Of a DNA stretch of 64,000 nt, positions 8,674-61,730 are shown piece by piece. The DNA is from Chiloscyllium plagiosum. Taxonomy: Eukaryota. Within the stretch, counting starts at the first letter, position 1. Each line of letters begins with the position of its first letter. Made by a program: the position numbers and the translations under genes. Where the stretch lies: positions 9,333,804 to 9,397,803 of the forward strand of contig NC_057719.1 in NCBI RefSeq assembly GCF_004010195.1, in the 5' to 3' direction. Below the pieces are notes generated by a model, which worked only from the letters and a program-made list of their open reading frames with translations, did no database searches and was not told the DNA's origin.

Positions 8674-8773
8674 GAAAGACACAGAAATTGCTGGCAAAAC
8701 TCAGCAGGTCTGGCAGCAGCAGTGGGGGAAAAGCAGAGTTCATGTTTCGAGTCTAGTGACTCTTCATCAGAAC
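8674..8773 (-). mobile_element. PLE terminal repeat with hammerhead motif (family C-like)
   Basis: Minus strand gtt-CTGATGA-a-gagtc-acta-gactc-GAAA-catg-aac. Confidence 0.75.
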
Positions 8774-8885
8774 CCATTGGCTGTGCTAAAAACAATTCAG
8801 AGCAGAGTGGATTTGAATGTGGATTTGAATGTGGAGGTGGGTGAAAAACAGAAGGACAGAATCAGGCTCTAAAGTTATTGAATTT

Positions 8886-9222
8886 TATAGAATCTGTACA
8901 ACATGGAAGCTGGCCATTTGGCCCATCGAGTCCATGTGGGCCATCTGAAGAGCATCCCAGACAGACTCAGCTCCTTACTCTTTCCTGTGACCCTGCATTT
9001 CCCATGGCTAATCCACCTAACCTGCACATCCCTGGACACTATGGACAATTTAGCATGGCCAATCCACCTAATCAATGGGAAGAAACCAGAGCACCTGGAG
9101 GGAACCCATGCAGACACGGGGAGAATGTACAAACTCCATGTAGATAGCCACCTGATGGTGGAATCAAACCTGGCTCCCTGTTGCTGTGAGGCAGCAGCAC
9201 TAGCCACTGAGCCATCATGCTG
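8886..9222 (-). mobile_element. HE1-type V-SINE
   Basis: Reverse HE1 copy. Confidence 0.85.
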
Positions 9223-9624
9223 CTCTGTCTTGATGTTGAGTCCCAGAGGCTTCTGGATCCTCAAGCCTGGACCTAGCCTTCAATAATTTTAGAGTTCAAT
9301 AACTTTCGAGTAATAATGTTTGTTTAATGAGACAGTACTGGCATGATGGGCTGAAATTCCTCCTTCTGCATCAGCTGTAATTCTGTGAGTAGAGCCATTA
9401 TGTTCCCCTCTTACCTTTGACAGTCAGCCTACCTTTTGTCCTTCCATTTTTGACATCACTCATTGCAAACTCCCACACCTCATTCATTGCTCACTTTGCC
9501 TTTAAGACACCAGCGTCTCTCATGATAAGTGCTTCATCATTCCCCAAAGCTTTTACTTTCCTTAAAGGCCATGTCAAAGTTGGAAACCTCTCCCTCGCGA
9601 TGGCTCCTTCAATACCCTCTTAAA

Positions 9625-9908
9625 CCGTGGTGGCTCAGTGGTTAGTACTGCTGATTCACAGCACCAGAAACCCAGGTTCAATTCCAGCCTCAGGCGACCG
9701 TCTGTGTGGAATTTGCACATTCTCCCTGTGTCTGTGTGGGTTTCCTCTGGGTGCTGTGGTTTCCTCCCACAGTCCAAAGATGTGCAGGTCAGGTGAATTG
9801 GCCACGCTAAATTACCCACAGTGTTAGGTGCATTAGTCAGAGGGAAATGGGTCAGGTTGGGCCGAAGGGCCTGTTTCCACACTGTAGGGAATCTAACCAT
9901 CTAATCTA
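9625..9908 (+). mobile_element. HE1-type V-SINE
   Basis: Forward HE1 copy with an internal deletion. Confidence 0.9.
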
Positions 9909-10310
9909 AAACTCTTGACTGGTTACAAGAGAAAGTTCATGTGTAAGCAAAATCACATTTAGCTTTCTTGCCCAGCTTTCCTTTCTTCGTTTTATCAGGA
10001 ATATTATGATTTTTCCTCTTCCATTGCTTTTGTTTGTTTGAGTTTCCAAACCTACATTTACTCCGCAGCCCCCACCAACATCCTGAGCTGTCACAGCAGA
10101 ACTTAATCGCGATAATTTACCCAATTGCAGAAGTACAAATGAGTGCAACTCTTATATTTCCCCAGTTATACCTTACCCCTTACAATCCACAGATCTTCGA
10201 AACCCAAATCTGACATTGACAAATCATTATGGCCGAAATCATCCCAACTTTGATTTCAACCTCAAAATGACTGTTCACCCCAGTGTTTTGACTTAATTAT
10301 AGAGACACCG

Positions 10311-11047
10311 AGTCACAGAGCTATAGAACATGGAAACAGACACTTCAGTTCAACTTGCCCATTCCAATTAGATATCCTAAACGAATCTATTTATATTTGC
10401 CAGCATTTGGCCCATATCCCTCTAAACCCTTCCTATTCATATACCCATCCCGATGCCTTTTAAATGTTGTAATTGCACCAGCCTCCACCACTTCCTCTGG
10501 CAGCTCATTCCATACATACACCACCCTCTGTGTGAAAAATTTGCTCCTTCGGTCCCCTTTAAATCTTTCCCCCTCTCACCTTAAACCCAAGCCCTCTGGT
10601 TCTGGACTCCCGCACCCCAGGGGAAAAAAAACCTTTGTCTGTTTATCCTATCCATGCCCCTCATGATTTAATAAACCCTGATATGGTCACCCCTTAGCCT
10701 CCGACGCTCCAGGGAAAACAGCCCCAGCTTATTCAGCCTCACCCTATAGCACAAACCCTCCAACACTGGCAACATCCTTGTAAATCCTTTCCTAACCCTT
10801 TCAAGTTTCACAACATCCTTCCTCTAGCAGGGAGACCAGAATTGCAAGCAGTATTCCAAAAGTGGCCTCACCAATGTCCTGTACAGCTGCAACATGACCT
10901 ACTAACTCAATGCACTAACCAATAAAAGCAAGCATACCAACCACCTTCTTCACTATCCTGTCTACCTGCAACTCTATTTTCACAGAACTATGAACTTGCA
11001 CTCCAAGGTCTCTTTGTTCAGCAACATTCCTCAGAACCTTACCATTA
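10311..11047 (-). mobile_element. HER1/CR1 LINE 3' fragment
   Basis: Reverse of gtatggaatgagctgccagaggaagtggtggaggctgg and the ORF2 C-terminus. Confidence 0.85.
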
Positions 11048-12029
11048 TCTACCCCCTAAAACAATGGGTTCTATCTCCCGAAGGACAGAGATCATTACCA
11101 CACCGACATGAACTCAGGGTGTGGTGAATCTGTGGAATTCTCTATCACATGGAGGTCAAAGTCATTGAAAATACTCACCAGTGGGACAGATAGGGTTTCT
11201 TTATACAAAAGGAGCGAGGAGAGAGAGCAGGAGTATAGAGTTGATACTGAGGATCAGTCATCAAGCCATACAGCATGGTTGTTGAAGCTTCGGTCCAAAT
11301 TGTCTATGCCAATCATATTCCCAAACTGAACTAGCCCCCACCTGCCTGAATTTGGCCCATATCCTTCCAAACCTTTCCTATTCATGTACTTATCCAAATG
11401 CTATAGAGTCAAGATCACGTTAGATGGCAGCATCAGCCCAATGGTACAAATGGTTACTCCTGCTCCTATTTTCCATATTTCTGACCGTACTTCAAAATGT
11501 TTCCGAAGTCCTTTGGGCCAGCTCTAGATTGTGAAGAGCAATTGTTGCTTCGCTCTCCATTTCACCCATTGGTGCTCAGTAATTTCGATCCCGAGTTCGA
11601 GATTTTCAACCCAAATAGTTCTGAATGGTTCAATCTAAAATCCCGTTGGATATGGGCCCACGGCACAACATTGCCAATAACACAGCAGAAACTGCCATCA
11701 AATTGGCAGCTTCAGTCACAGACACAGTATTCCAGCCGACACTGGCAATGGAAAGTCACACTGATACTTTAAGAAGTGGCTGACTTAACTGCAATTAAGG
11801 GTCAATTTTGGGGAATGGGACATTGGTATGAAGAGCAATAGGAGCTTTTTGCACCCATAAACTGATGCAGAACAGCAACGGAAGCTGAGGCTAGTCCTAA
11901 ACAGATGTACACGTGCAATTGTTTGATACTAACCTATAGATAACACATTTTGAAAATATTCTGGGATTGTTGATGAGGACTGAGTAATCACTTATATTGT
12001 CTGACTTTAAAAATTCTTTCTGTCCTCTT

Positions 12030-12260
12030 ATAGAGTCATACAACATGGATATAGACCCTCCAGTCCAACCAGTCCATGCTGAACATTATCCCAAACTAAA
12101 CTAGTCCCACCTGCCTGCTCCTGGTCTATATCCCTCCAAAACTTTCCTATTGATGTACCTATCCAATTGTCTTTTAAACGTTGTAATTTTCATTCCACAC
12201 TCAAATCACCCTCTGTGTAAAAGATTTGCCCCTCGCGTCTTTTTAAATCTCTCTCCACTC
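12030..12260 (-). mobile_element. HER1/CR1 LINE 3' tail
   Basis: atagagtcatacaacatggatatagaccc... tail signature. Confidence 0.75.
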
Positions 12261-12828
12261 AATTACAGTTCTGATTGCAGGAGTTTTGAGGGATGGGGAA
12301 TAAATTAGCCTTTTTGAGAGGGGGGGCAAGCGATTACTGTGACACTAAAGTCTGTAAACAATGCCTAAACTTCATTATGTGCTAATCGATGGATGCTTGG
12401 CTGCTTGTCCTGTATCGATGGGTGTAAATTCCTTTGTAAACAATTAATGAAGTTTAAATCCAATTTTGCTTACCTAGACTAGTTTGTTATTGGGTAATAG
12501 ATGGGTCATGATGAGTTACAGGACACTCACTCAATCTGTGACATCCTGAAGCTCAAATGATTTTGTGCATATCAATAGAATGATGACTCATTGTCTTGTA
12601 CACACTGCAGGTCATTTCCAATTCTTGATTGAATATTTAAACAATACTGAAGGAAAACTTCTTGAAATTGTTACCTGTCAGCAAAATGAAAGCTTGATAT
12701 CTTGGAAAGAAGTCAAAGTAATGCATCTTCATGCGCCCTCAGGCCTTGTCTCCTCATATTGCATTACTGCCAAAACACTACAAAGTCTATTGGGTGACAA
12801 GGAGGAAGAGGAAAAGGGCTCCAATTCA

Positions 12829-13052
12829 AAGTAGAAAAGCAGGAGGCTGGGAGAACACAGCAAGCCAGGCAGCAGCAGGAGATTAAGAAGTCAACTTTTT
12901 GGGTATTAATCGAGTAGGATTAAATTCTAATCCTGAAGAAGGGTTAATACCTGAAACGTTCTCTTCTCCACCTCCTGATACTGTTTGGCTTACTGTGTAC
13001 TTTCAGCCTCCTGTTTGTCTACTTTGGATTCCAGCATTTGCAGTCTTTTTTG
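12829..13052. mobile_element. Fold-back PLE terminal-repeat element (family D)
   Basis: Arms aagtagaaaagcaggaggctg / cagcctcctgtttgtctactt. Hammerhead core ctgaagaagggttaatacctgaaacgtt. Confidence 0.75.
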
Positions 13053-13095
13053 GGATTCTAATTCACCGGGATCTGAGGTGCCCTCTTATAGTTTA

Positions 13096-13293
13096 GGAGA
13101 AAGTGAGGTCTGCAGATGCTGGAGATCAGAGCTGAAAATGTGTTGCTGGAAAAGCGCAGCAGGTCAGGCAGCATCCAGGGAACAGGAGAATCGACGAAGC
13201 CCTTCCTGAAGAAGGGCTTATGCCCAAAACGTCGATTCTCCTGTTCCCTGAATGCTGCCTGACCTGCTGCGCTTTTCCAGCAACACATTTTCA
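13096..13293. mobile_element. Fold-back PLE terminal-repeat element (family A) with 14-bp TSD
   Basis: Near-perfect inverted arms. TSD cctcttatagttta at 13082-13095 and 13294-13307. Confidence 0.9.
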
Positions 13294-14039
13294 CCTCTTA
13301 TAGTTTACTCAGGTAGCTATTCTCTCTGTGAGTCTACGGTCCTGTCAATCCATTAAACTCTTCACGGAGGCTGAATCTGTCCTCTTCAAAATGGCATGCA
13401 TATGTGTGGTTTATCTAAAAAACTATTAACAGTTTATAGCATCTCACTGGTTACAATGGGTTACAATGTTTAAATGCTTAATCCACATGGCATTGTTTTC
13501 GGATTAAATAGAATTGCCAATCTGATTAACAAGATATATTAAAATTAAGTAAACATTCTTACACAGTAAGGGAGTTAACTATCTAAAGGGCCAAAACAGA
13601 GAAAGCAGGTAGCACAGGACAATGTTGGGAAAAGTACAAGAACTCTATCTCTGAGGAAGGAATGTAAAATTGCTTTCTCTATGCCAAGGAGCTAGGCTCA
13701 ACTCTGGCACAGGCAGGAGATGGGCAGTATTGAATTGACTGCCTGCTGTGCCTTGGAGCATTATCCTGTCAATTGACTTCAATGAATCCACTGGCTTTAG
13801 CTTCTGTCATCATGTATTAGTGTTAGAGTTTTTAATGCAGTGAAACATTAGCCTAAAGGGACTTTACAGGAGCAATTACTGTACCAAATTGAAACGTGGC
13901 TCTGGGTTATATAATGAGATATTTGACGAGATAGCCAAAAGCTTTGTCAAATGTTTAAAAGATGATTTATAGGTGGAAAGAGAGCAACTGAGGCACAGGG
14001 AGGGAGCTTAAAAAAAGTATTTCGTAGAATGTGAGTTTT

Positions 14040-14505
14040 GCTGACTGGGCAAGCATTGTCCATCTCTAACAACCCGGGAGCAGGTGGTGGTGAGCTCCCT
14101 TCTTGAACTGCTGCAGGTCAAGTTCTGTCAGGGAGGGAATTCTAGGCTTTTGACTCAACAACAGTGATCAAATGGTGATTTACCTCCAAGGTAGGACCTG
14201 TGTACCTTGGAGGGAGCTTTTGCAGGTGGTAATAATTTAGGTGGTAATAATGCCAGGTACTTGTTGTCTTTGTCCCTGTAGATGGTCGAAATTGTGGGCT
14301 GGAAGCTACTGATGAAAAAGCCTCGGTGAGTTGCTGCAGTGCATCTTGTAGATGGTGCGCTCTGCTGTCACTGCGTGTTGGTGATGGAGGGAATGAATGT
14401 TGAAGATGCCAGTCATGTTGGCTGTTTTGTTCTGGGTGGACTCAAGCTTCTTGAGCATTATTGGAACTGCACCCAACCAGGTAAGTGGTAGTATTCCACT
14501 TACCA
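14040..14505 (-). mobile_element. Second CR1/L2-group LINE, 3' fragment
   Basis: Minus translation PLTWLGAVPIMLKKL..IYKMHCSNSPRL; homologous to 24070-24908. Confidence 0.75.
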
Positions 14506-14698
14506 AGTGGCAGTTGGGACGTCATGTTGAGGTTGCTCACCAACATCGGTGAGGTCTCTTCTGGAATACTGTCTCCAGTTCTGGTCACCCTGTTATAGGA
14601 ATGATATTACTAAGCTGGAGAGAGGTCAAAAGAGATTTACCAGGATGTTGCCAGGTATAGAAGGTTTGAGTTATAAAGAAAGGCTGGATAGGCTGGGT
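14506..14698 (+). mobile_element. HER1/CR1 ORF2 fragment
   Basis: LEYCLQFWSP..LER..RFTRMLPG-like translation. Confidence 0.75.
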
Positions 14699-14708
14699 GT
14701 CTCTGCCT

Positions 14709-15165
14709 AGGCCAGAATTTGGTGCCCCATTCCTAATTGCCCAGAGAGCAGTTAAGAGTCAATCACATTGCTTTGGGTCTGGAGTCACATATAAGCCACA
14801 CCAGTTACAAAGGCTTGTCGATCTTGGATTCCAGCATCTGTTGGTTTTTTGCCGCTAACGAAAAAGGGCTATACCCAAAACGTTGACTTCTCCATCTCCT
14901 GATGCTGCTTGGCTTGCTGTGTTCTTCCAGCCTCCTGCTGGTCTATGCAGGTAATGAGGAAGGCAGTTTCCTTCCCTAATTAATGAGCCAGAAAGGATTT
15001 TCCTGACTTTCGACAATGGATTCATCGTCATCATTGGACTCTCTAATTCCAGATATTTATTGACTTCATATTCCACCATCTGGCGGGATTTAAACTGGGT
15101 CCCCAAAACATTATCGGCTTCATTGGACTAACAGTCTAGCAATAATACCATGAGGCCATTGCCCC
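14709..15165 (-). mobile_element. tRNA-type SINE family 2, containing a family D PLE insertion at about 14815-14945
   Basis: gggtctggagtcacat..ggcagtttccttccc motif shared with 22482, 46640, 54280 and 58003. Confidence 0.75.
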
Positions 15166-15619
15166 TCAGGACATTACAAAGTCAAACTTAAACTTGGGAT
15201 TGTATGATGAGCAAATGTAGTTTTCAAATCTGGAATCTAAATAACTCTGTTCACTTAAAAGTGTCTCCCATTTCTAAAAATAAAAGAAACAAACTCTTGG
15301 CAATAACACAATTTTTTTTGCTGTTCAGGGTACCTTTCATTCAACTGATGAGTAATGATGACATTATCGCAGAAGTGTACAAGTGAGCTGACTTAATCAA
15401 CAGTTAAAAATGATGCGATTACCAAAGCAGATCGTGTTAATTACTGTATTCAAATTATGCAAATACACAGCCCCTTGTACTGGTGAGCTGAGTCACACTT
15501 ACAAACCAAAGTTCCTCTGTGATTCTGCTCATTGTTCACACAATATCCTGTGGATGTTACAGAGTGAATTACAGCAACTAGGCCAAGCTCTGCTGAGGGA
15601 TCAAGGCAAATAACCTTTA

Positions 15620-15709
15620 ACGAAAGTGGAATTTGCTGGAGAAACTCAGCAGGCCTGAAAGCAGAGTTAGCATTTCAAGTCCACTGGCCCATCTTCAGAA
15701 CATAAAGTT
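15620..15709 (-). mobile_element. Short PLE terminal repeat (family C) with 9-bp TSD
   Basis: taaccttta at 15611-15619 and 15710-15718. Degraded hammerhead. Confidence 0.65.
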
Positions 15710-16354
15710 TAACCTTTACAACAAGGTCAGTAAGTGGCAAAAACAGGAAACATTCCCAAGTTCAAAGGATAGTGAACGTTCAAAATTATTTTCCCCAAAA
15801 AACACTGCTGAAAATTTCATGAACCACCTCAGCAGATTCTGTGAACATGGACTGCTTTCCCAGTTTTCCTTTCATTCATAACACCAAGTTTTCCATGTGT
15901 GTTCTTCTCTGTTTGTGAGTTGTGCATGTGTGCACGTGTGTGCATAAGGGCTAATGCATAGAGAAATTTGGGCTTTAACTAGTTGGAGGTATATGTCAGC
16001 CATTCTTTTTTTTAACCTATAACTAGAGTCTCTACTTGTAATGGATACATGTTAAATATAGAAACCTGACTCATGGTCTCTCTCAGTATGGACGAGAAAA
16101 TGAGGCAAATTGGGAAATTCTGTGCACTTTTAGAACTCTGTAATTTTTGTGATGACTCCAAGCATAGCAGGGCTTGATTATCATTGTGAGGTGCAACACT
16201 TCACTTAACTATTTATCGCAAATTGCTTCCACTGTGTAGTGTGCTTGCAGTTCAAGGTTAGACTTCAATTTTGGATATGTCTGTGTTGGTCTGGCATGCT
16301 CTCCTACACTTCTCATTGAAACAGTGTTATAAAATCAACATTATCCCAGAAGAA

Positions 16355-16522
16355 CATAGGCTGGTCTCTGAGACAGAGAGAAAAAACTAGTGATGGTTTA
16401 ATCTGAGGGTCACCACGCCTCAGATGAGGGGAAAGGCTACAAAGGTAGCCCCAGAGCTGGGAAGTGAACCCATGCTGTTGGCATCACAGCACAGCCATTC
16501 AGCCAGCTGAGCTAGCTTTGGA
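16355..16522 (-). mobile_element. tRNA-type SINE family 3
   Basis: ctgagggtcaccacgcctcag..gaacccatgctgttggcatc..ctgagcta; homologous to 21805 and 51075. Confidence 0.7.
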
Positions 16523-16584
16523 CCTGCTGGCTGTAGAGTAACCAAAGAGTAAGGGTCACGAGGACAGAGTTTATAGTTGAATCG

Positions 16585-17124
16585 AATCACAGAATCCCTA
16601 CAGTGTGGAAGCAGGTCATTCAGCCCATTGAGTCCATACTGACCCTCCAAACAGCCACCCTCCGAGACTCACCCCATCCCTGTGACCCTGCATTTACCAT
16701 GCCTAATGCACCTAACCTGCACATGGAACAGGGCAGCCCTTCCTCATGAAGGGCTCCTGCCCGAAACATCGATTTTCCTGCTCTTTGGATGCTGCCTGAT
16801 CTGCTGTGCTTTTCCAGCAGCACACATTAATCTTATCTCTGCACATGGAACAGTACAGTGCAGGAACAGGCCCTTCAGCCCACAATGTTGTGCTGAACAT
16901 GACATTAAATTAAACGAATCTCTTCTGCCTGCGCTGGGTCCATGTCCTTCCACATTTACATGCTTTTGCACTGTGGGAGGAAACCGGAGCACCCAGAGGA
17001 AACCCATGCAGACACGGGGGAGAATGTGCAAACTCCACACAGACAGTAGCCCGAGCCTGGAATCAAACCCAGGTCCCTGGCGCTGTGAGGCAGCAGCGCT
17101 AACTACTGAGCCACCATGCTGCCC
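16585..17124 (-). mobile_element. HE1-type V-SINE with nested LINE tail and PLE insertions
   Basis: HE1 tail at 16585-16720 and head at about 16965-17124. Confidence 0.85.
16732..16838 (+). mobile_element. Short PLE terminal repeat (family A) with 15-bp TSD
   Basis: ctgcacatggaacag at 16717-16731 and 16839-16853. Core ctcatgaagggctcctgcccgaaacatc. Confidence 0.85.
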
Positions 17125-18609: not shown

Positions 18610-18749
18610 AGTACTTTGAGAATTGGTACCCAGCTCAAATGCTGCTCAGTGTTTATTCCCAAGCCCCCACTACCCGAGTGAAGAAGAAATTACAAGGCCA
18701 AGTTCATTAAAACAAAGAGGAGGTACAAATACGGACTCTGGAAATAAAG

Positions 18750-27539: not shown

Positions 27540-28545
27540 CATGAACTAGCCACTTGGATACAGAACTGGCTTGAAGGTAGAAGACACAGGGTGGTGGTGG
27601 AGGGTTGTCTTTCAGACTGGAGGCCTGAGACCAATGAAGTGCCACAAGGATTAGTGCTGGGTCCACTACTTTTCATCATTTATATAAATGATTTGAATGT
27701 GAATATAAGAGGGATAGTTAGTAAGTTTGCAGATGACACTAAAATTGGAGGTGTAGTGGACAGTGAAGAAGATTACCTCAGATTACCTTGATCAGATGGG
27801 CCAATGCGCTGAGGAGTGGCAGATGGAGTTTAATTCAGATAAATTGAGGTGCTGCATTTTGGAAAAGCAAATCACTCATACACTTAATGGTAAGGTTCTG
27901 GGCAGTGTTGCTGAACAAAAGGACCTTGGAGTGCAGGTTCATAGCTCCTTGAAAGTAGAGTCGCAGGTAGATAGGAGAGCGAAGAAGGCGTTTGGTATTC
28001 TTTCCTTTATTGGTCAGAGTATTGAGTATAGGAGTTGGGAGGTCATGTTGCGTTGGGAAGTCTAGAACTAGAGGGCATAGGTTCAGGTTGACAGGGGAAA
28101 GATATAAAAGGGACCTAAGGGGCAACTTTTTCATGCAGAAGGTGGTGCAAGTATGTGATGAGCTGCCAGAGGAAGTGGTGAAGGCTGGTGGAACTCCAGC
28201 ATTTAAAAGGCATCTCGATGAGTATATGAATTGGAAGGGTTTAGATGAATATGGGCTATGTGCCGACAAATTGGACTAGATTAGTTTGGGATAAAAAGGG
28301 ACCTAAGGGGCAACTTTTTCACGCAGAAGGTGGTGCGAGTATGTGATGAGCTGCCAGAGGAAGTGGTGAAGGCTGGTGCAACTCCAGCATTTAAAAGGCA
28401 TCTCGATGAGTATATGAATTGGAAGGGTTTAGATGAATATGGGCCATGTGCTGACAAATTGGACTAGATTAGTTTGGGATATCTGGTCAGCATGGACAAG
28501 TTGGACCGAAGGGTCTGTTTCCATGCTGTAGAGCTCTATGACTTT
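27540..28545 (+). mobile_element. HER1/CR1 LINE RT fragment with internal 188-bp tandem duplication
   Basis: WIQNWL..RVVVEG..VPQGLVLGPLLFIIYINDL..SKFADDTKIGG. Confidence 0.92.
28106..28481 (+). repeat. Tandem duplication, 2 x 188 bp
   Basis: Units 28106-28293 and 28294-28481, 5 differences by eye. Confidence 0.9.
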
Positions 28546-30632: not shown

Positions 30633-31132
30633 NNNNNNNNNNNNNNNNNNNNNNNNNNNNNNNNNNNNNNNNNNNNNNNNNNNNNNNNNNNNNNNNNNNN
30701 NNNNNNNNNNNNNNNNNNNNNNNNNNNNNNNNNNNNNNNNNNNNNNNNNNNNNNNNNNNNNNNNNNNNNNNNNNNNNNNNNNNNNNNNNNNNNNNNNNNN
30801 NNNNNNNNNNNNNNNNNNNNNNNNNNNNNNNNNNNNNNNNNNNNNNNNNNNNNNNNNNNNNNNNNNNNNNNNNNNNNNNNNNNNNNNNNNNNNNNNNNNN
30901 NNNNNNNNNNNNNNNNNNNNNNNNNNNNNNNNNNNNNNNNNNNNNNNNNNNNNNNNNNNNNNNNNNNNNNNNNNNNNNNNNNNNNNNNNNNNNNNNNNNN
31001 NNNNNNNNNNNNNNNNNNNNNNNNNNNNNNNNNNNNNNNNNNNNNNNNNNNNNNNNNNNNNNNNNNNNNNNNNNNNNNNNNNNNNNNNNNNNNNNNNNNN
31101 NNNNNNNNNNNNNNNNNNNNNNNNNNNNNNNN
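30633..31132. other. Assembly gap (500 N)
   Basis: Run of n. Confidence 1.
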
Positions 31133-32350: not shown

Positions 32351-32674
32351 TCTCTGAAGAAGGCATGGCAGATTGAGAAGGCTGTTGAAGAAGCAGACAG
32401 CACCCTGAGCTTTGGAAGCTGTGGCATAAGTACGATTGAAAACTTAATGAGTCAGGTACAGTATGGCCATTGCTGGATTGACTGAATCTGATTCTGGGTT
32501 TCAGGGGAAAGTCAAGGGATTGGAGAGACTGCAGAAGTGACTTTTTACAATGTTCCAAAAGGGAAAGGGACAGATGTGTGAAGGACCTATAGAAACAGAG
32601 ATTGTTCACGGCAGAGCGGATCAGACTGAGGGGACATTTAACTCAGTTGTTCAAAACCATGCTGTGTGAGATGG

Positions 32675-33400
32675 AGGGGAAGGAGGCTGGAAGAACACAG
32701 CAAGCCAGGCAGCATCAGGAGGTGGAGAAGTCAATGTTTTGGGTGTGAGCCTTCTTCAGCACTAGGGTGGGTTTGGGGGGAGCTGCAGATAAAGGGGGTG
32801 GAAGGGGCAGGGTGATGAAGTGGGGATAGGTGAAGAGAGGGAGAGGGTATGACCTGATTGGTCAGTGAGAGAAATGAATCCAGTTGGTGGCAGGGAGTAA
32901 TGGAAGGGAGAGGGAGGGGCTGTGAAAGGAAGTTATTTGAAATTGGAGAACGGTGGCACGGTGGCTCAGTGGTTAGCACTGCTGCCTCACAGTGCCAGGG
33001 ACCCGGGTTCAATTCCCACCTTGGGCAACTGTTTGTGTAGAGTTTGCACAATCTCCCCGTGTCTGCATTGGTTTCCTCCTGGTGCTCCGGTTTCCTCCCA
33101 CAGTCCAAAGATGTGCAGGTCAGGTGAATTGGCCATGCTAAATTGCCCATAGTGCTAGGTGCGTTAGTCAGGGGTAAATATAGGGTAGGGGAATGGGTTT
33201 GGGTGGGTTTCTCTTCGGAGGGGCAGTGTGGACTTGTTGGGCTGAAGGGCCTGTTTCCACACTGTAGAGAATCTAATCGAGTCTCAATGTTGAGTCCTCC
33301 ATGTGGAAGATGAGGTGTTGTTCCTCCAATTTGCGGTGCGGCAATGGAAGAGGCCAAGGATGGTCTTGTTGGAAAGGGGATTTTGTTGGCTGTTTGGTCA
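32675..33400 (-). mobile_element. Penelope-like element 3' fragment (family D terminus), split by HE1
   Basis: Reverse terminal repeat at 32675-32765 and body ..ttgaaattggagaac|tcaatgttgagtcc. Confidence 0.75.
32952..33279 (+). mobile_element. HE1-type V-SINE
   Basis: Full-length copy. Confidence 0.92.
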
Positions 33401-37509: not shown

Positions 37510-37797
37510 GCATCTCATCTTCCTGGCTGACGATCATCAACCCCTTTGTCCACCTCCTCTTTCTCTCTCTTTCAGAGCTCTGTCTCCACCTACCCATTCC
37601 CTCCTTTCTCCCCAGTCTCCATCATCAGCACACATATAACCTTTCTTTAGCTGCTATCAGTTCTGAAGAAGGGTCATTGGATCCAGAACATTAACTTTGA
37701 GTCTCTTTTTCATAGGTGTTGCCAGATGGGCTGAGTTTCCCCAGCAATTTCTGTTTTTGCTCATTTCAGATCTCAAGCATCTGCAGTTCTTTGTTTT
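37510..37797 (+). mobile_element. PLE 3' end (family C) with hammerhead motif
   Basis: agtt-CTGAAGA(37663)-a-gggtc-attg-gatcc-agaa-catt-aact. Confidence 0.7.
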
Positions 37798-39138: not shown

Positions 39139-39310
39139 AACAAAAAACTACTCGAGATCACACTCAATGCTCTGATGAAGAGACATCTAGATTTGAAATG
39201 TTAGCTTGCTCTGTCTCTCTCTCTGTGGATGCTGTCAGGCCCACTGTGATTTCCAGCATTTTTTTTTTTGTTTTCAGTACAGATTTCCAGCATCTGCAGT
39301 AATTTTGTTC
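39139..39310 (+). mobile_element. PLE terminal-repeat element (family F) with short inverted arm and 16-bp TSD
   Basis: ctgcaat(t/c)gtaataaa at 39123-39138 and 39311-39326. Core gct-CTGATGA..GAAA-tgtt-agc. Confidence 0.8.
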
Positions 39311-51074: not shown

Positions 51075-51195
51075 CATTAGACCATACGGCTGCCCTCTCT
51101 CATCAGAGAGAGGTACCTGGTGGGTTTGACCTGAGGGTTACCGAGCCCCGGGCGAGGGGAGACGTTGAGAAGGAGATTCTATCATGGTGTCCTCA
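51075..51195 (-). mobile_element. tRNA-type SINE family 3 fragment
   Basis: agaccatacggctg..acctgagggttaccgagcc..gagggga. Confidence 0.65.
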
Positions 51196-51618: not shown

Positions 51619-51823
51619 GAGGTTAAAAATCACACAGCACCAGGCTATAGTCCAACAGGTTTATTTGGAAACACTAGCTTTTGGAGCATTGCTACTTCAT
51701 CAGGTGGTGAAGGAGCAGCGCTCTGAAAGCTAGCGTTTCCAAATAAACCTGTTGGACTATAGCCTGGTGCTGTGTGATTTTTAACTTTGTACACCCCAGA
51801 CCAACACCGGCACCTCCAAATCA
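51619..51823. mobile_element. Fold-back PLE terminal-repeat element (family B)
   Basis: About 75-bp inverted arms. TSD-like tatc(c/t)t(a/g)gaat at 51608-51618 and 51824-51834. Confidence 0.88.
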
Positions 51824-53055: not shown

Positions 53056-53320
53056 AGAGTGTGGTGCTGGAAAAGCACAGCAGGTCAGGCAGTATTCGAG
53101 GAGCAGGAAAATCAATATTTCGGGCAAAAGCCCTTCATCAGTAATGTCCCCAGGAGGACCAGTTCCACCACAGAGCACACCAGATGGCCTCCATCTTAAA
53201 GACTGCAATTTTCCCTCCCATGTGGTTGATGATGCCCTCCAGCACATCTCATCCACATCCCTCACCTCCACCCTCAAACCCCACCCCTCCAACCGCAATA
53301 AAGACAGACCCCCCTCCTGA
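53056..53320. mobile_element. Inverted family A terminal repeat fused to a plus-strand PLE ORF fragment
   Basis: Minus-strand repeat 53056-53140 ends at cccttcatcag, then QFHHRAHQMAS.LK..FP..VV-like PLE linker. Confidence 0.75.
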
Positions 53321-53334
53321 AATGCAGAACGAAG

Positions 53335-53560
53335 AGTCTAATGGTGACCATGAAACCAGTTTGAATTTTAAGAAAAACCCAACTTGGTCACTCATATCTT
53401 TTAGGGAAGGAATTCTGCCCTCCTTTCTTTGTCTAGCCTACATGTGGCGCCAGACTAACAGCAATGTGGTTCACTCTTCACTGCCCTCTGGGTAATTAGG
53501 GATGGGCAATAAATGTTGACCTCGCCAGTGACACCACATCCTGTGAGTGAATAGTTTTTA
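53335..53560 (+). mobile_element. tRNA-type SINE family 2, 3' part
   Basis: ttagggaaggaattctgcc..gggtaattagggatgggcaataaatg. Confidence 0.75.
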
Positions 53561-53719
53561 AAAAGAAGCTGTTGGAGTTGTATAGAACCAGAACAGGTTG
53601 GTATGAGCGAGTGTTTAATTGAATGTATGTTATTAAAAATGATGGAGTCAGATTTTAATGGAGTGAGACTTCAGAGGGGGGGCTAGTTTAGCTTGGGCTT
53701 ATGTTCACCATTGACTGAT

Positions 53720-54085
53720 TTGGCCCGAAGGGTCTGTTTCCATACTGTATGACTCTATGACAGTGACAGCCCATTCCGTACAAGCACCACCCTCTGTGTC
53801 CCTTTTAAATTTTTCCCCTCTCTCCTTAAACCTATGCCATCTAGTTTTGGACTCCACTACCCTGGGGAAAGGACCTTGTCTATTATGATTTCATAAACAT
53901 CTATAAGGTCACCCCTCAGCCTTCGACACTCCAGGGAAAACAGCCCCAGGCTGTTCAGCCTCTCCCAGAAGCTCAAACCCCCCAGTCCCGGCAACATCTT
54001 TGTAAATCTTTTCTGCACCCTTTCAAGTTTAACATCTTTCCTACAGCAGGGAGACCAGAATTGAACGCAGTTTTCCAAAAGTAGT
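53720..54085 (-). mobile_element. HER1/CR1 fragments
   Basis: [30 protein letters not shown]. Confidence 0.8.
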
Positions 54086-54279
54086 TTTAAATATCCTCAA
54101 TATGTAAATTTAGCCTGATCTCCAGGCCAAGACTCCAATGGGAATATTTCTTGGTGTTATCAAACATATTCTAAACAGTGCATTTAGATTAATTGGAAAC
54201 TCTATGGACTTGCAAGTCAATATGGTACAAATTTATGATGACAATGGAATATTAGAAGCAGTTATCAACAGAATATTTT

Positions 54280-54600
54280 CTCATTCACTGTGGACATCCT
54301 TGTCTCAGCCAGCTTTTATTGCCCACTTGTAACTGTAGAGGGCAGTAAAGAGTCAACTATATTACTGTGGGTCTGGAGTCAATTGTAGGCCAGATTCCTT
54401 CCCTAAAGTCATTAGTGGCTCTTCTAATAACAATGACAACCAACAATTTCTACATGGTCATCACTAGGAAAGCTTTTTATTCCAGGCTTCCTTAGGAGTT
54501 AGCTTGAAACTTTCAGTTTAGTGGGATATGAACTCATGACCCTAAGGCATTAAGCTGAGCCCAGGATCATTGGGCCAATGACATTACCACTACGCTATCA
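54280..54600 (-). mobile_element. tRNA-type SINE family 2
   Basis: ctgtgggtctggagtc..ttccttccctaaag. Confidence 0.7.
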
Positions 54601-54945
54601 CATTTCTGAGATTTCAGGAGTTCACTGAAGGTAATGGAGAATGAGAAAGGAATGATAATCCTGCCTACAAGTTTATAGTAGTTGCCATTCGCATCGAGAC
54701 AGACTAATAACTGCAGTCCAGAAAGTAGCTCAGCCCAAATCTGACAAGACAAATGCAAGAGGCAATCAAACAGATTTGAAAATAATAATTATAATGGCAA
54801 CAATGAGTGCTATGCAGCTAGAGGTGGTACCGGAACATAAAGACACCCACAGCCTACAGTGCTGTCAACCAAAACATTTCATTCAATCCAGTCTACCTTA
54901 CTTGAAGAGCTACCGGCAGAGACACCACCTTGGTAGCTGCTATTT

Positions 54946-55050
54946 GGTCTGAAGAAGTGTCTCTTGTCCTGAAACATTAACTCTGTTTTCTTTCCACAGA
55001 TGCTGCCAGACCTGCTGAGTTTCTCCAGTGATCTTCAGATCTCCAGTATT
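54946..55050 (+). mobile_element. PLE terminal repeat (family C)
   Basis: CTGAAGA at 54949 ..gaaacattaactctg..gatgctgccagacctgctgagtttctccag. Confidence 0.7.
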
Positions 55051-55053
55051 TTT

Positions 55054-55371
55054 AGATTAGATTACTTACAGTGTGGAAACAGGCCCTTTGGCCCAACAAA
55101 TCCACACTGACCCTCCGAAGAGCAACCCACCCAGACCCATTCCCCTACATTTACCCCTTCACCTAACACTACGGGCAATTTAGCATGGCCAACTCACCTA
55201 ACCTGCACATCTTTGGACTGTGGGAGGAAACCAGAGTACCCGTAGGAACCCCACGCCAACATGGGGAGAATGTGCAAATTCCACACAGACAGTTGCCTGA
55301 GATGGGAATTGAACCCGGGTTCTCTGGCACTGTGAGGCAGCAGGGCTAACCACTGTGCCACCGTGCCACCC
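55054..55371 (-). mobile_element. HE1-type V-SINE
   Basis: Full-length reverse copy. Confidence 0.92.
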
Positions 55372-55679
55372 ATTTGTAGTTCTTTGTTTCATCTCATTGG
55401 GGATAGGCTTGTCTCTGTGCCAGTTTATGGTAGATTCGAGACCCACATTCCCTCTCTCTTATAGGAACACACATACAGTTTCGGAGCAGGCCATTCAGCC
55501 CAGTCTCGCTGTTCTCTTTATGGCCTCAACTCCACTTTTGTGCTGATCACTGACATCGGTTGACTGCCTTGTTTCTCATGGACCTAGCTACTTGGGTTCA
55601 ACTGAGACTTATACCCTATTAGTGAGGGGCACTCATTTACATCTTTCTTTCTCTATCTGGAAATAGCATGAGGTCTGAA

Positions 55680-56445
55680 CATTGGAGGTTGAGAGATGAC
55701 CTTATAGAGGTTTATAAAATCATGGCAGACAGGTTTAGGGTGAATAGTCAAGGTCTTTTCCCCAAGGTAGGGGAATCCAAAAAAATAGAGGGCATAGATT
55801 TAAGGTGAGAGAGGTAAGATTTAAAAGGGACCTAAGGGGCAACTTTTTCATGCAGAGTGTGGTGTGTGTATGGAATGAGCTGCCAGAGGAAGTGGTGGAA
55901 GCTGGTACAATTACAACATTTAAAAGGCATCTAGATGGATACATTAAGGCTTTAGAGGGATATGGGCCAAATGCTAGCAAATGGGACAAAATTAATTTTT
56001 AGACACCTGGTTGGCAAGGACATGTTTGACCGAAGGGTCATTTTCCGTGTTGTCTGACCCTGTGACTCAATGACCGTATACAATAAATGGCCGAGCCCTT
56101 AGAAGCATTGACATACAGAGAGGTTGAGACATACAGCTCCACAGTTCCCTGGCAACACAAGTGGAGAAGGTGGTCAAGAAAGCATATTGCATATTTGCTT
56201 TCATTGGTTGGGGCAGAGAGTATAAAAGTTGTCAAGTCCTGTTGCAGCTGTAGAGAACTATAGTTCGGCCAGATTTGGAATACTACGTACAGTTCTGGTC
56301 GCCACACCAGCAGAAGAACGTGGAGGCTATGGACAGGGCGCAGAACCCATTTACCAGGATATTGCCTGGTTTGGAGGATAGTCAACAAATATGAAGAGAG
56401 ATTGGACAAATTCAGTTTATTTTCACTTTAACATCAGAGGCTGTG
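55680..56445 (+). mobile_element. Two adjacent CR1/HER1 fragments
   Basis: HER1 3' end to about 56070, then an ORF2 piece (..LY..VRP.LEY.VQFWSP). Confidence 0.8.
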
Positions 56446-57409
56446 GGACTATTAAGCAAGAGTGAAAAATCACAAGCCATATTACACCAGATGAAATGTT
56501 AGAAAGTTTTTTTTTTAACAGACATCAGAAAAAGATTGAACACCATACTATCCTTACAAAGAATTCTCAAACATTAGTGAAGAAACGCTACACTAAAGCT
56601 CCATGCTCTCTCCCAGGCTGCGACAGATGCAACCAATTTCTGTGCGGCAGGTTTCTATGCCGTCAGTAGATGCAACTTTTTCCATCTTCTGGTCGCTCTT
56701 CCTGACACATCTGAAACAAACTGCAAACTTTTCTTCATAGAGATACACCGCGCAGAAAAAGGACCTTTGACCCATCACGTCTGCACCAATCAAACACAAC
56801 CACCTAACTTACCTCACTTCTACTTGTAACTTTAAAGCAACTATGTGAGGTTTCTAAACTCAGCTGTACAGCGGCATTGCCTCTTCCTTCTGGCACATAT
56901 ATACACAGACTTTCAACACTGCTCGGGTTCTCTGCATGTCTGGACCTCTCTCACTTGGCGCGAACACACTGATTGTCACTTTTTAAAAATGATACATTAA
57001 ACCTTGCTAAGCTTTACTCCAACTATTCTACCTCACTTCAATCTCATTAAAATACGTATAAAAGAAAACAGACCTACAGATTTCCCAGTATCACTCACAG
57101 AACAAATCTAAAATGAAACTAAATCTGATCTCCCCCTTCTTAGCAGACAAAATATAAATGCAACTTAAATTTATACAGTGTTCTTAGCCGAAGCAATGGA
57201 TCCTCCAAATGATGACTTTGGACAATTTCAGCTATGAGTAGTAAAATGCTTATAACTCTAAAGTTCATTTTCAATGGTAGTTTTTATCTGAATTAGATAG
57301 GCCTGTGTATTGGAGGGATAGGGATTAATAAATAAGCAGCCGAGCATCTTGAAGTGTGCTATGACATAACTGTGACCATAGTTGTCCTGTGACCGCAACT
57401 CTCTTACAA

Positions 57410-58000
57410 CATCGGACCAGTAGTAGGTCATTCAGGCCCTTGAACCTGTTCTGTCATCCAATGAGATCATGGTTGATCTGTGGCCTAGTTTCGAGAGTGT
57501 GGTGCTGGATAAGCACAGCAGGTCAGGCAGCATCCGAGGAGCCATTCATCAGGAGTGACTGTCCATTCAGTACTGGTCGACCAGGAATGACCAGTCACTC
57601 CTGAAGAAGGGCTTTTGCCCGAAACATCGATTGTCCTGCTCCTCGGATGCTACCTGGCCGGCTGTGCTTTTTCAGCACCACACTCTCGAATCTGATCTCC
57701 AGCGTCTGCAGTCCTCACGTTCTACTCGTTGATATGTGGCCTAACTCTATGTACCTTTGGTCCACATTTGCTTAACAAAAATTTATCTCCCTCAGTTTTA
57801 AAATTAGTAACTGATCTAGCATCAATTGCTGCTGGGGAAAGAGAGTTCCAAAAGTCTACCTTCCTTTGTGTATAGAAGTACTTCCTAACATCTGTCCTGA
57901 ATGATCTGGCCCTAATCTTTAATTTATGTCCCCTAGTTCTAGAATCTTCAACCAGTGGAAATAGTTAGACTTTATCTACCCTGTCTTTTGCTATTAATAT
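57410..58000 (-). mobile_element. CR1 3' tail hosting a fold-back PLE insertion
   Basis: gtaggtcattcaggcccttgaacctgttctg..gagatcatggttgatctgtggcc. Confidence 0.7.
57488..57727. mobile_element. Fold-back PLE terminal-repeat element (family A) with palindromic spacer and 16-bp TSD
   Basis: TSD gttgat(c/a)tgtggccta at 57472-57487 and 57728-57743. Hammerhead core at 57601-57628. Confidence 0.9.
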
Positions 58001-58002
58001 CA

Positions 58003-58345
58003 TGGGGGAGGCGATAGCCTTGTGGAATGACTGTTAATCCAAAGAGTCAAATAATGTTCTGGGGACCAAATCCTGTCACAGCAAATAGTAGCAGTTGAAT
58101 TCAACATAAAACAATTCTGGAATTAGAGATCTCATAATGACCATGAGTCCATTGCCAATTGTTCAAAAATCTATCCACGTGAAGGTCCTTTAGGGAAGGA
58201 AACTGTCATTCTTACCTGAAATGGCCTTCATGTGACTCCAAACCCACAGCACTATGGTTGACTCTTAGTTGCCTTCTGGGCAATTAGGGATGGGCAATTA
58301 ATGCTGGCCGAGCCAGTGATGCTCATGGTCCCTGAATGAATACAA
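58003..58345 (+). mobile_element. tRNA-type SINE family 2 (near full length)
   Basis: Head ggaggcgatagccttgtgg, tail gggcaattagggatgggcaattaatgctggcc..gaatgaat. Confidence 0.8.
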
Positions 58346-58492
58346 AACTCTTGACGACTTCAATCAGATCACCCCTTAACCTTCTAAATTCAAGAGAAAT
58401 CAGGCCAAATTTGCATAACTCTCCTAATAATTCAGAAAGGAATAAGGGGAGCCAAAATCCCATAATAAATACTGCTTGAAGAAACACACATT

Positions 58493-58772
58493 GGCATGAT
58501 GGCTCAATGGTTAGCATTACTACTTCACAGCACCAGGGGCCCAGGATTGATTCCAGCCTCGGGTAACTGTCTATGTGGATTTTGCACATTCTCTCTGTGT
58601 CTGACTGAGTTTCTTCCAGGTGCTCCGGTGTCCTCCCACAGTCCAATGTGCAGACGAGGTGGATTAGCCATGGGAAATGCAGGGTTATAAGGATAGGGAG
58701 GGATGTTCTTCTTAGGGTTGGTGTGGACTCAAATAGGCCAAATGGGCTCCTTCCACACTGTAGGGATTCTAT
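58493..58772 (+). mobile_element. HE1-type V-SINE
   Basis: Forward copy. Confidence 0.85.
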
Positions 58773-58819
58773 GATCTGGGCTGAGCTGACTGCAGCTGAC
58801 AAAGTCACAAACACACTTT

Positions 58820-59122
58820 GGGGCAGCACAGTGGCTCAGTGGTTAGCACTGCTGCCTCACAGCATCAGGGACGTGGGTTCGATTCCAGATTTGGGTGACT
58901 GTGTGGAGTTTGCACATTCTCCCCATGTCTGCATGGATTTCCTCTGGGTGCTCTGGTTTCCTCCCACAATCCAAAGATGCTAAATTGCCCATTGTGTTAG
59001 ATGCATTAGTCAGGGGTAAAGATAGGGGAGTGGGAATGGGTTTGGATGGGTTACTCTTCGGAGGGTCAGTGTGGACTTGTTGAGCTGAAGGGCCTGTTTC
59101 CATGCTGTAGAGAATCTAATCT
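58820..59122 (+). mobile_element. HE1-type V-SINE
   Basis: Forward copy. Confidence 0.9.
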
Positions 59123-59370
59123 AATAACATAATATTAATAATGAACATGGATTGAGGTTTAATATCAGCATTACTGGATGCAGAAATGGGTTTGAAGGGT
59201 TGTTATTCTGAAAGAGCAGACCGTAGGATACAGAGAAGCTGGGGGTGTGCACAATCAATTAAGAAAAGGTTTGTTGAAAGAATGTACATTGACTTTATTC
59301 TTAAATGGTTCGGATTGATTCATCTTTGACACATGAGAAAAAAATTGTGTGTGCATATATAAAGAGGTAT

Positions 59371-59682
59371 CATAGAATCCCCACAGAGTGGAAGCAAGCC
59401 ATTCACCCCGTGGAGTCCACACCCACCCTCTGAAGAGCACCTACTTCATCCCTGTTACCTCACATTCCCTATGACTAATCCACCCAGCCTGCACATCCCT
59501 GGACACTACGGGCAATCTAGTATGGTCAATCCACCTAACCTGCTCATTGGACTGAGGGAGGAAACCGAAGCAGCCGGAGGAAACCCCCGCAGACACGGGG
59601 GAGAATGTACAAACTCCACACAGACAGTCGTGCAAGGGTGGAATTAAACCCAAGTTCCTGGAGCTGTGAGGCAGCAGTGCCT
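59371..59682 (-). mobile_element. HE1-type V-SINE
   Basis: Reverse copy. Confidence 0.85.
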
Positions 59683-59709
59683 AGCTACAATGCCAAGTAT
59701 TATGTGATG

Positions 59710-59839
59710 ATTCGGAGATGCCGGTGTTGGACTGGGGTGTACAAAGTTAAAAATCACACAACACCAGGTTATAGTCCAACAGGTTTAATTGGAAGCACAC
59801 TAGCTTTCAGAGTGACGCTCCTTCATCAGGTGATTCACT
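59710..59839 (-). mobile_element. Single PLE terminal repeat (family B) with 15-bp TSD
   Basis: aagtat(t/a)atgtgatg at 59695-59709 and 59840-59854. Confidence 0.85.
59798..59832 (-). ncRNA. Minimal hammerhead ribozyme motif (family B)
   Basis: Minus strand CAC-CTGATGA-A-GGAGC-gtc-ACTCT-GAAA-GCTA-GTG. Stem I CAC/GTG; stem II shows CpG-type decay. Confidence 0.65.
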
Positions 59840-61545
59840 AAGTATAATGTGATGTTGCATTGTTGAAATCTATTCTAATCTTCTGGCACACATCAGTCAG
59901 AAGCATAGTTGCACAGATCCAGAAACTGCTCAGTACACTTCTTCGTTATTAGGTACTTAAACAGGTTATCAACTTATTCTATGCATTTGTTTTTGCTTTC
60001 ATATTGAACACTCAGTGCACTGTCAGCATAAAAATACAAGAAGGAAACTATTATATGGTATTTGGGCAGGGAAAGGGGGAGGAGGAGAGGGCTGCTGTCT
60101 TAAACACACTAGAGAGAGAGGCTGAGAGTTTGTGTTTCTGTTCACTTAGCAGCAACATTCACTCCCAAAGCTTTCGAGATAGGTCATTTTATCTCATGTT
60201 TCAGTATGCCTAGTCTACCATCTTCCCATTATAGCTTCGAGCTGCAATTTACCTGGATCCTGCTGCACAGTAAATGCGATGGTGGGCGTCGAGGTGACAG
60301 TAAGGGTGAAAGTAAGAATGAAATGATCAACAGGCTTGGCAATCATGTGACAGACCAAATTCTCTAATCTGTAATTCCATCGTACATCAGTCTGCAATCA
60401 CACCATTACTGTGTATGAATCCACTTTACTGCATCATTAGTTCAATCAACAACCATATTATTAGGGCATTTGCATTACACAGGTAATTTATTTTTTTTTA
60501 AAGAATACAATCTAATGTGTCATTACCAGAGACACAAGTGTCAATTGTGCAGTGGCCTGCAGAACGGTAACCAAAATTAATTCCCATTCTGTTCACCGTT
60601 AGGTTGCCCCAGAATTGTGGAAATGAAGATTACATTCCTTGCTATGGATTTCTGGAAATCTATCACTTTGCAAAATCATTCTAGTGTAATATGTGGGCAC
60701 AGCAGCAAAAATTCCGAAGCTTGACAATTGCATGGAAGAGCAGCATTATGTTGGTGCTGGCTTGTTTATAATGGCTGAGCTCATGCAGTGACTAAATGAG
60801 CAGAGAGGTGCACATTAGATGCACACTTTCTCCATCGACCATGACAGTTCTACAACAACAACCTTCCACAGTGTAGCAAAGCATTCCAAGAGGTTTTGCA
60901 TGTCATCAAGCAAAAACTCGACTGTCGATCACACAGTGTGACGTGAGGCCAGGTGACCAAAGGGTAAGAAGGTTCAGAAGGGTCTTTTAACAAACCAAAA
61001 GGCCAATAGAGAGGCTTAGGGAGACTTGACAGCTGAAGGATGACTTCATTCCCAAAATTTTAGTACAGATAACCACAATTAATTTGCGTGGAGAAAATCA
61101 TTTTAAATTTACTTTGGGGCACCAAATCTTATAGCTGGAATCTCCATATCCTAGCTATAATTTTTAATTGCACTTTTATATTTCATGCCATGAAACCTAT
61201 TGCTCCCATTTCAGAATATCCATCCATTGTTGCTCTTCATAAAGGGACTGGTTAAAACACTACTTAGTTGTTACAGCACAAGATGTTCTGTCCCATTAAG
61301 CATTTCATTAAATCATTCCATACATAGTCCAGTAATTGTGAGTATTCTTCCACATGACGAAACTGACAATCATCTCGACACATCTGAAAGGGGAAAAAAA
61401 AAGACCTGCATTTATATAACACCATCTGCCCTAATGTCTCCTGCAAAGCTGAGTTGTAAATTTTGTTTCACAATTCCTCTGTGAAATGTCGTGAGAGGTT
61501 TACATTGAGCATTGGAAGCAGTTTAATGAAGGTTTACTGGATGAG

Positions 61546-61730
61546 CACTGAGGAAGGGTCACTGGATTCTGGATTAGAGTGGTGCTGAAAAAGCACAGTA
61601 GTTCAGGCAGCATCCAAGGAGCAGGAAAATCGACGTTTCAGCCAAAAGCCCTTCATCTGGACCTGAGCCGTTAACTCTGATTTCTTTCTACAGATGCTGC
61701 CCCAGGCCTGCTGAGCTTTTCCAGCAATTT
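61546..61730 (+). mobile_element. Family C PLE terminal repeat interrupted by a reverse family A repeat (61567-61656)
   Basis: ctgaggaagggtcactgga|insert|ctggacctgagccgttaactctg. Confidence 0.8.

What the first reader, a model, noticed from the sequence alone, without database searches (positions are those of the whole stretch)
8770..61657. Truncation and inversion points cluster at the 5' edge of the hammerhead
Seen: short copies stop or fold back within about 10 nt of CTGANGA at 8773, about 13205, 15701, about 16740, 39169, about 51700, 53140, 54947, 59835 and 61656, across families A, B, C and F. Random 5' truncation would not predict this. Inference: the RNA start, or an RT stall/switch point, is set by the ribozyme fold. 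The boundary lies upstream of the core, not at the predicted cleavage site, which needs explaining.
Basis: partly seen in the sequence, partly recalled or inferred. Interest (0 to 1): 0.7.

Follow-up and report, generated by a model that had tools for sequence, protein, structure and literature searches.

The report
Penelope stubs stop at RNA start
Short dead copies of Penelope-type jumping genes in this shark-like genome end at the front edge of their hammerhead ribozyme about 5 to 14 times more often than elsewhere, likely because the copying enzyme starts in the RNA's leader and runs off the RNA's start, which would give a handle on how this poorly understood class replicates.

Summary
The clustering is real. 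In 1.6 Mb of genome sampled at fixed positions, with copies found by their 3' tail only, 80 of 140 family-A insertions end at -10..+4 of the hammerhead core (13.8x background) and 21 of 52 family-B insertions at -15..+4 (5.2x). These are known Penelope-like (probably Neptune) stubs: ribozyme plus 5' leader, two fixed 3' ends, head-to-head pairs with one long and one short tail (80 of 84), and mostly 13-18-nt target duplications. Junctions are almost all unique, so they are independent events. Best reading (0.5): reverse transcription primes in the 5' leader and runs off an RNA 5' end, probably a transcription start; an initiator-like motif lies at -4 (A, C) and -8 (B), and B ends shift upstream accordingly. 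Against: no cap-G excess, no RNA starts seen, and 8 of 14 full-length copies pass the wall. That the fold sets the point is not shown. Family-B RNA is polyadenylated at +57/+60, upstream of both inferred priming sites, which allows an LTR-like strong-stop and strand-transfer model (untested, 0.25). This scan noted the same wall and poly(A) site before on other DNA.

The parts
1..375 (+). Family A (A1) long copy: 3' UTR, hammerhead core at 249, long tail; passes the wall
1780..2409 (+). Family A (A3) long copy: decayed linker/endonuclease end, 3' UTR, core at 2280, long tail; passes the wall
4820..5049 (.).
8681..8773 (-). Family C stub, 5' end at -3, core at 8770
12841..13030 (.). Family F head-to-head pair, arms at about -6 and +15
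13096..13293 (.). Family A head-to-head pair, arms -3..+91 and +24..long tail; 14-nt target duplication at 13082-13095 and 13294-13307
14860..14936 (+). Family F stub, 5' end at +2
15620..15701 (-). Diverged C-like stub, core at 15698; boundary not verifiable
16740..16823 (+). Family A stub, 5' end at -3, preceded by a few bases that mirror stem II; 15-nt target duplication at 16717-16731 and 16839-16853
32660..32905 (-). Family F long copy, core at 32759; passes the wall (used as reference)
37523..37792 (+). Family C long copy, core at 37663; passes the wall (used as reference)
39169..39310 (+). Diverged C-like stub, core at 39172; boundary not verifiable, right end approximate
51622..51823 (.). 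Family B head-to-head pair, arms -3..+82 and -5..+120, joined in a short palindrome at the core edge
53058..53145 (-). Family A stub, 5' end at -4
54935..55028 (+).
57488..57727 (.). Family A head-to-head pair with a self-complementary filler between the arms; 16-nt target duplication
59710..59835 (-). Family B stub -6..+120 with 15-nt target duplication at 59695-59709 and 59840-59854
61545..61735 (.). Family A stub (61565-61661, minus strand, 5' end near the core start) inserted into a family C copy (plus strand, core at 61548); nesting, not a fold-back

Best explanation
The short copies are Penelope-like retroelement insertions made of the hammerhead and 5' leader, and their 5' ends pile up at -10..+4 likely because reverse transcription, predicted to prime from the nicked target at two fixed sites in the 5' leader, runs off the 5' end of a template RNA that probably starts a few bases before the ribozyme core. 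Steps: (1) shown: copies have two fixed 3' ends (A +91/+126, B +83/+120) and the family-B ORF starts at +121; (2) shown: head-to-head pairs are single insertions with one long and one short tail and a target duplication of mostly 13-18 nt; inferred: each side of a staggered cut primes one cDNA, one per start site; (3) inferred: both cDNAs end at the RNA 5' end after about 95-135 nt; (4) inferred: the ends are trimmed and joined to each other or to the far target end by end joining, which smears the ends downstream of a sharp upstream edge; (5) inferred: long copies come from templates that continue upstream, by read-through or by a jump to the RNA 3' end. The ribozyme would be copied uncut in most events.
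For: Peak 13.8x (A) and 5.2x (B) per insertion outside the window, present in lone copies too (A 40 of 85). Sharp upstream edge: 0 A ends at -15..-11 among 24 copies at risk. Independent events: 57 of 59 and 21 of 21 junction types distinct; duplications in 58 of 81 pairs against 1-4 in shuffles; no shared 5' flank among 45 A, 11 B and 22 C lone copies. Leader-ORF continuity in full-length B copies. Initiator-like motif with A at -4 in all four A and both C references and at -8/-9 in B, absent in the F reference (motif consensus recalled); B ends are shifted upstream (median -5.5 against -3; p=0.0005 vs A, 0.02 vs C). Full-length B copies also stop more often there (5 ends, 0.023 per nt against 0.004-0.009). 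Published in vitro: the Anolis element extends both strands from two internal sites near the ORF start, needs sequence downstream of them, and prefers uncut RNA (PMC11167929).
Against: No extra G before the first templated base: 34 of 129 against 36.3 expected. No pile-up of RNA starts in the one RNA run that covered the elements, a poly(A)-primed single-cell library that is poorly suited to this. 8 of 14 full-length B copies that reach +5 run past -50, so a single start site with no jump or read-through cannot be the whole story. The initiator match is short (0.007-0.043 per nt upstream) and overlaps stem I. In D. virilis Penelope the start lies 46 nt plus a 75-nt intron upstream of the ribozyme (PMC2377424; PMC4209133), so a start at the ribozyme is not general.
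Confidence: 0.5

Rival explanations
1. The RNA 5' end is set by the fold or by the bound protein: longer read-through RNA is trimmed 5'-to-3' by an exonuclease until it meets the ribozyme-protein complex, and RT runs off this uncapped end. This is the strongest form of the first reader's idea.
For: No cap-G signal. The wall sits at the same place relative to the core in three families with unrelated upstream sequence. The Anolis protein assists ribozyme folding (PMC11167929).
Against: B has the shortest stem I but the most upstream ends. The commonest A and C ends (-4, -3) lie inside stem I, not in front of it.
Confidence: 0.2
2. RT stalls or falls off at the ribozyme fold on a long template, with the same chance at every pass.
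For: The stop fraction does not differ significantly between tail-anchored (37 of 62) and ORF-anchored (5 of 14) B copies (p=0.14).
Against: RT enters the fold from +33 and has melted stems I and II before it reaches -4 (inference); the rate at +15..+25 is at background. The ribozyme region folds weakly as a monomer (z -0.3 to -2.4).
Confidence: 0.1
3. The ends are made at the DNA level: micro-palindromes at the core edge drive fold-back or joining of cDNA ends, or the endonuclease nicks the cDNA there.
For: Several junctions lie in short palindromes or stem complementarity. One duplication-bounded lone copy carries a 15-nt mirror of its own stem II (L007). Self-priming was proposed for such palindromes (PMC3846280).
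Against: Lone copies joined to host DNA show the same wall. Mini fold-backs are 5 of 85 against 0-5 in controls. The short-tailed arm reaches further in 43 of 75 informative pairs, which simple fold-back of a long-tailed cDNA cannot give. Target sites show no strict motif.
Confidence: 0.12
4. The band is an artefact of motif recognition or of subfamily divergence upstream of -4, or it reflects a few short master elements.
For: A wrong-subfamily reference does give false ends at -4; adding references moved one lone copy to the long class.
Against: Tail-only ascertainment, simulation, ends bounded by target duplications, unique junctions, unshared and non-pyrimidine-rich flanks.
Confidence: 0.04

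Closest known systems
Endonuclease-positive Penelope-like elements, Neptune/Nematis type (PMC8557442, passages; PMC3846280, parts 1-4 of 5)
   Same: RT plus C-terminal GIY-YIG ORF, cysteine-rich linker, pLTR with hammerhead, inverted 5'-truncated copy, one-sided 30-40-nt tail, target duplications.
   Different: Those texts' truncation frequent and variable; a wall of 5' ends at the ribozyme edge and near-strict long/short pairing counts were not in the parts read.
Anolis Poseidon element PAc (PMC11167929, parts 1-2 of 4; supplementary figure S2 not seen)
   Same: Two internal RT start sites that delimit the tail, both strands extended, uncut RNA as template, ribozyme at the pLTR-ORF junction.
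   Different: Other clade; PAc's ORF starts in stem II, family B's at +121. The paper assumes multi-copy mRNA and does not discuss 5' ends of copies in the text read.
Minimal type I hammerheads of metazoan PLEs (PMC4209133, parts 1-2 of 4)
   Same: CUGANGA, one unpaired base, stem II, GAAA, palindromic minimal stem III, short stem I; mostly lone copies.
   Different: That paper proposes cut and circularised templates; the main 5' ends here are about 30 nt upstream of the cut.
Minus-strand strong-stop DNA and first strand transfer of LTR retroelements (recalled)
   Same: Works like it in the bold reading: priming near the RNA 5' end, run-off, terminal repeat with the poly(A) site inside it (family B).
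   Different: Target-primed, two start sites, GIY-YIG endonuclease, no tRNA primer or integrase known for this class; transfer not shown.
Non-LTR retrozymes (bioRxiv 10.64898/2026.07.22.740005, parts 1-3 of 5)
   Same: Short hammerhead-bearing relatives of PLE pLTRs in vertebrates.
   Different: Retrozymes are head-to-tail tandem arrays; these are lone or head-to-head with unique junctions.

Membership tests
EN+ Penelope-like element | ORF with RT followed by GIY-YIG endonuclease | tested here: met
   RVT_1 E=3e-6 (family B) and GIY-YIG E=0.0013 (family A), both below Pfam's cut-off; RT pieces run into the ribozyme-tail end in both families
EN+ Penelope-like element | [quoted passage not shown] | tested here: met
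   Family B; the family-A 5' end was not reached
EN+ Penelope-like element | Inverted 5'-truncated copy and one-sided 30-40-nt tail | tested here: met
   59 of 62 and 21 of 22 pairs long+short; 35-37-nt difference
Neptune clade | Cysteine-rich linker between RT and endonuclease | tested here: met
   C-x4-C-x2-C in A and B translations; shared with Nematis per PMC8557442
Neptune clade | Placement in an RT tree | not tested
   No tree built
Minimal type I hammerhead | Core boxes, stem II, palindromic stem III, stem I closing 5' and 3' ends | tested here: met
   stem I only 2 bp in A, 3 in B, 3-5 in C; no Rfam hit at gathering score
Minimal type I hammerhead | Self-cleavage | not testable with these tools
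   A small excess of ends at +26..+34 in inverted arms (p=0.001) but not in lone copies is ambiguous
Non-LTR retrozyme | Head-to-tail tandem array of hammerhead units | tested here: not met
   No such array in the window; sample copies are mostly lone or head-to-head, with a few two-unit direct repeats
SINE-like master family | One shared 5' end or junction copied many times | tested here: not met
   57 of 59 and 21 of 21 junction types distinct
LTR-type strong-stop and transfer | Poly(A) site inside the terminal repeat, upstream of the priming site | tested here: met
   Family B only: poly(A) at +57/+60, signal in 48 of 59 copies; A 7 of 255, C 0 of 65, F 0 of 18
LTR-type strong-stop and transfer | Strand transfer from RNA 5' end to 3' end | tested here: inconclusive
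   No clear subfamily chimeras among 55 long A copies; no pile-up of deletions landing at the wall in 79 long-copy loci, read by eye
Capped Pol II start at the wall | Untemplated G or RNA starts at -10..-3 | tested here: inconclusive
   No G excess, though trimming would erase it; library unsuited to 5' ends

The most novel reading that the evidence does not exclude
The pseudo-LTR is a functional U3-R-U5 unit. RNA starts just before the hammerhead and (in family B) is polyadenylated at +57/+60 of the downstream repeat, so it has only one copy of the priming sites, in its 5' leader. An enzyme dimer primes there from both sides of the target cut, makes two strong-stop cDNAs, and each either jumps to the RNA's 3' repeat and copies the element, regenerating the pLTR on a second jump, or is abandoned as a stub. 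The hundreds of thousands of stubs would be integrated strong-stop DNA: a target-primed element with a retrovirus-like first strand transfer.
Probability: 0.25. Interest if true: 0.85.

Novelty: new variant of a known kind. Interest (0 to 1): 0.5.

Why it matters
How Penelope-like elements regenerate their pseudo-LTRs and form inverted ends is called unresolved in the papers read (PMC2377424, PMC8557442, PMC11167929). A measured wall of 5' ends, two priming sites used one per end, and a poly(A) site upstream of those sites give three fixed coordinates that make the replication cycle testable with CAGE and with the existing in vitro system. The elements themselves are ordinary, and the wall alone would only map a transcript start.

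Tried and rejected
Rfam scan: no hit. Pfam on the decayed window frames: nothing. Type III topology with a cut upstream of the core: rejected by eye, no stem III partner upstream. 3' splice acceptor as the wall: upstream AGs lie at -12 to -25 in most references and at -8 only in A3 and A4, and lone copies share no upstream exon. Endonuclease sequence preference: no strict target motif in 58 duplications. Cap G: none. Arm-to-arm identity: uninformative, control biased. Strand-transfer footprints: none found. Family-A 5' end: not reached; the query proved to be an inverted 3' piece. RNA: no listed holder of the stretch is on record as RNA; run X20 laid 0 reads; contig runs X1 and X2 cannot show ends; for family A only 6 of 179 loose-end rows were shown and none was poly(A). 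Supplements of PMC11167929 held as text gave no hits; its figure S2 may show 5' ends. Repbase and the 2005 and 2006 reviews were not available.
Full report
Setting. The window is G000:C10:9333804-9397803 of a 3.56-Gb genome, shark-like by its size and repeat content (my inference). The motifs are minimal type I hammerheads in the ends of Penelope-like elements (PLEs). Longer copies lead back into RT and GIY-YIG coding sequence with a C-x4-C-x2-C linker, which points to the Neptune/Nematis type (PMC8557442, passages). I number from the C of CTGANGA (0); the predicted cut is at about +28.

Observation at the named sites. Seven of ten sites have an end or fold-back within 10 nt of the core, one runs to -14, and two cannot be aligned. 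The site at 61656 is a family-A stub nested in a family-C copy, not a fold-back. In the window 11 of 21 tail-anchored copies end at -10..+4; four pass far upstream.

Genome test. I took 160 stretches of 10 kb at round positions on 18 large contigs, found copies with the tail only (from +45), and aligned them to references built from long copies. Of 430 hits, after the exclusions listed in the observation check, A has 103 of 202 arms ending at -10..+4, C 24 of 52, B 37 of 83 at -15..+4, and F 4 of 17. Counting each insertion once and leaving out the window, the rate is 13.8 times background in A (80 of 140, p=5e-40) and 5.2 times in B (21 of 52, p=8e-7); for pairs this uses the further-reaching arm, but lone copies alone show the peak too (A 40 of 85). 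The band has a sharp upstream edge and a smear downstream. The main risk is subfamily divergence upstream of -4, which does create false ends with a wrong reference. Adding references changed 10 calls by more than 3 nt and left 100 of 203 A arms in the band; simulation gave 26 of 220, or 36 with the source subfamily missing. Lone copies share no 5' flank and their flanks are not pyrimidine-rich like family-A 3' UTRs. Extrapolated numbers are roughly 570,000 A, 200,000 B and 140,000 C arms.

Anatomy. 3' ends are bimodal: A +91/+126, B +83/+120. Head-to-head pairs carry one long and one short tail in 59 of 62 (A) and 21 of 22 (B) cases, against 31 and 11 expected; 58 of 81 pairs and 32 of 123 lone copies have target duplications, against 1-4 in shuffles; junction types are distinct in 57 of 59 and 21 of 21 pairs. 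Either arm can reach further (short 43, long 32). In full-length B copies the ORF's ATG is at +121, so the stubs are copies of the 5' leader. This fits the Anolis element in vitro, which extends both strands from two internal sites, needs about 55 nt downstream of them, and uses uncut RNA (PMC11167929, parts 1-2 of 4).

What sets the wall. Best reading: run-off at an RNA 5' end, probably a transcription start. An initiator-like motif (consensus recalled) has its A at -4 in A and C and at -8/-9 in B, and B ends lie further upstream. A stall at the fold should fall on its 3' side (inference), where the rate is near background. In D. virilis the start is about 120 nt upstream on unspliced RNA (PMC2377424, passages; PMC4209133, parts 1-2 of 4). 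A small excess at the cut site appears in inverted arms only and may come from cut RNA or from stem complementarity.

Poly(A) site. In a poly(A)-primed single-cell run (X19, about 2% read, same species label as the best DNA holders, identity with this genome not shown), 466 and 368 reads carry poly(T) at places equal to +60 and +57 of the family-B leader, with depth running into the 3' UTR. 48 of 59 B copies have AATAAA or ATTAAA about 20 nt before; A, C and F mostly lack it. Polyadenylated B RNA therefore ends upstream of both inferred priming sites. These reads may come from host transcripts that end in old copies, and PLEs may use unprocessed RNA, since they keep introns (PMC3846280, parts 1-4 of 5). 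If the mRNA is the template, priming must be in the 5' leader, and long copies need a jump to the 3' repeat. I found no footprint of such a jump, so this stays a hypothesis.

Known and new. The elements, tail, inverted ends and ribozymes are described. Eight full-text searches and the parts of eight papers that I read (also bioRxiv 10.64898/2026.07.22.740005, parts 1-3 of 5; PMC6431247 and PMC6765202, passages) gave no account of 5' ends piling at the ribozyme edge or of strong-stop transfer in PLEs. Subscription papers, Repbase and figure S2 of PMC11167929 were not seen. Earlier notes of this scan report the same wall in this and other genomes and the same poly(A) site; they are not independent support. 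Verdict: real pattern in a known element class, mechanism probable but not shown; interest 0.5.

Noticed in passing
L191:1849-1852 (family B leader +57/+60): Used poly(A) site in RNA reads, with AATAAA or ATTAAA as the two common variants and a GU-rich stretch downstream.
   Followed up: partly
L191-L220, L271-L280: Full-length B copies often end inside the 5' leader; 10 of 36 end at +53..+79, near the poly(A) position, at a rate only slightly above the rest.
   Followed up: partly
window 57543-57594: Self-complementary filler of about 50 nt between the arms of a duplication-bounded family-A pair; both arms share extra upstream bases found in no reference.
   Followed up: no
L007 (minus strand, family A lone copy): 15-nt mirror of the copy's own stem II variant inside the target duplication, which suggests occasional cDNA fold-back.
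   Followed up: partly
window 61545-61735; L166:1-200; L065 near 2781; L267: PLE stubs inserted into or directly beside other PLE ends, including across families.
   Followed up: no
L221-L270, L162-L190: Long copies often have internal deletions or inverted segments between the ORF and the 3' end.
   Followed up: partly
window 28101-28482: Two tandem copies of a 188-nt LINE-like segment, 96% alike.
   Followed up: no
window 30633-31132: 500-nt run of N.
   Followed up: no
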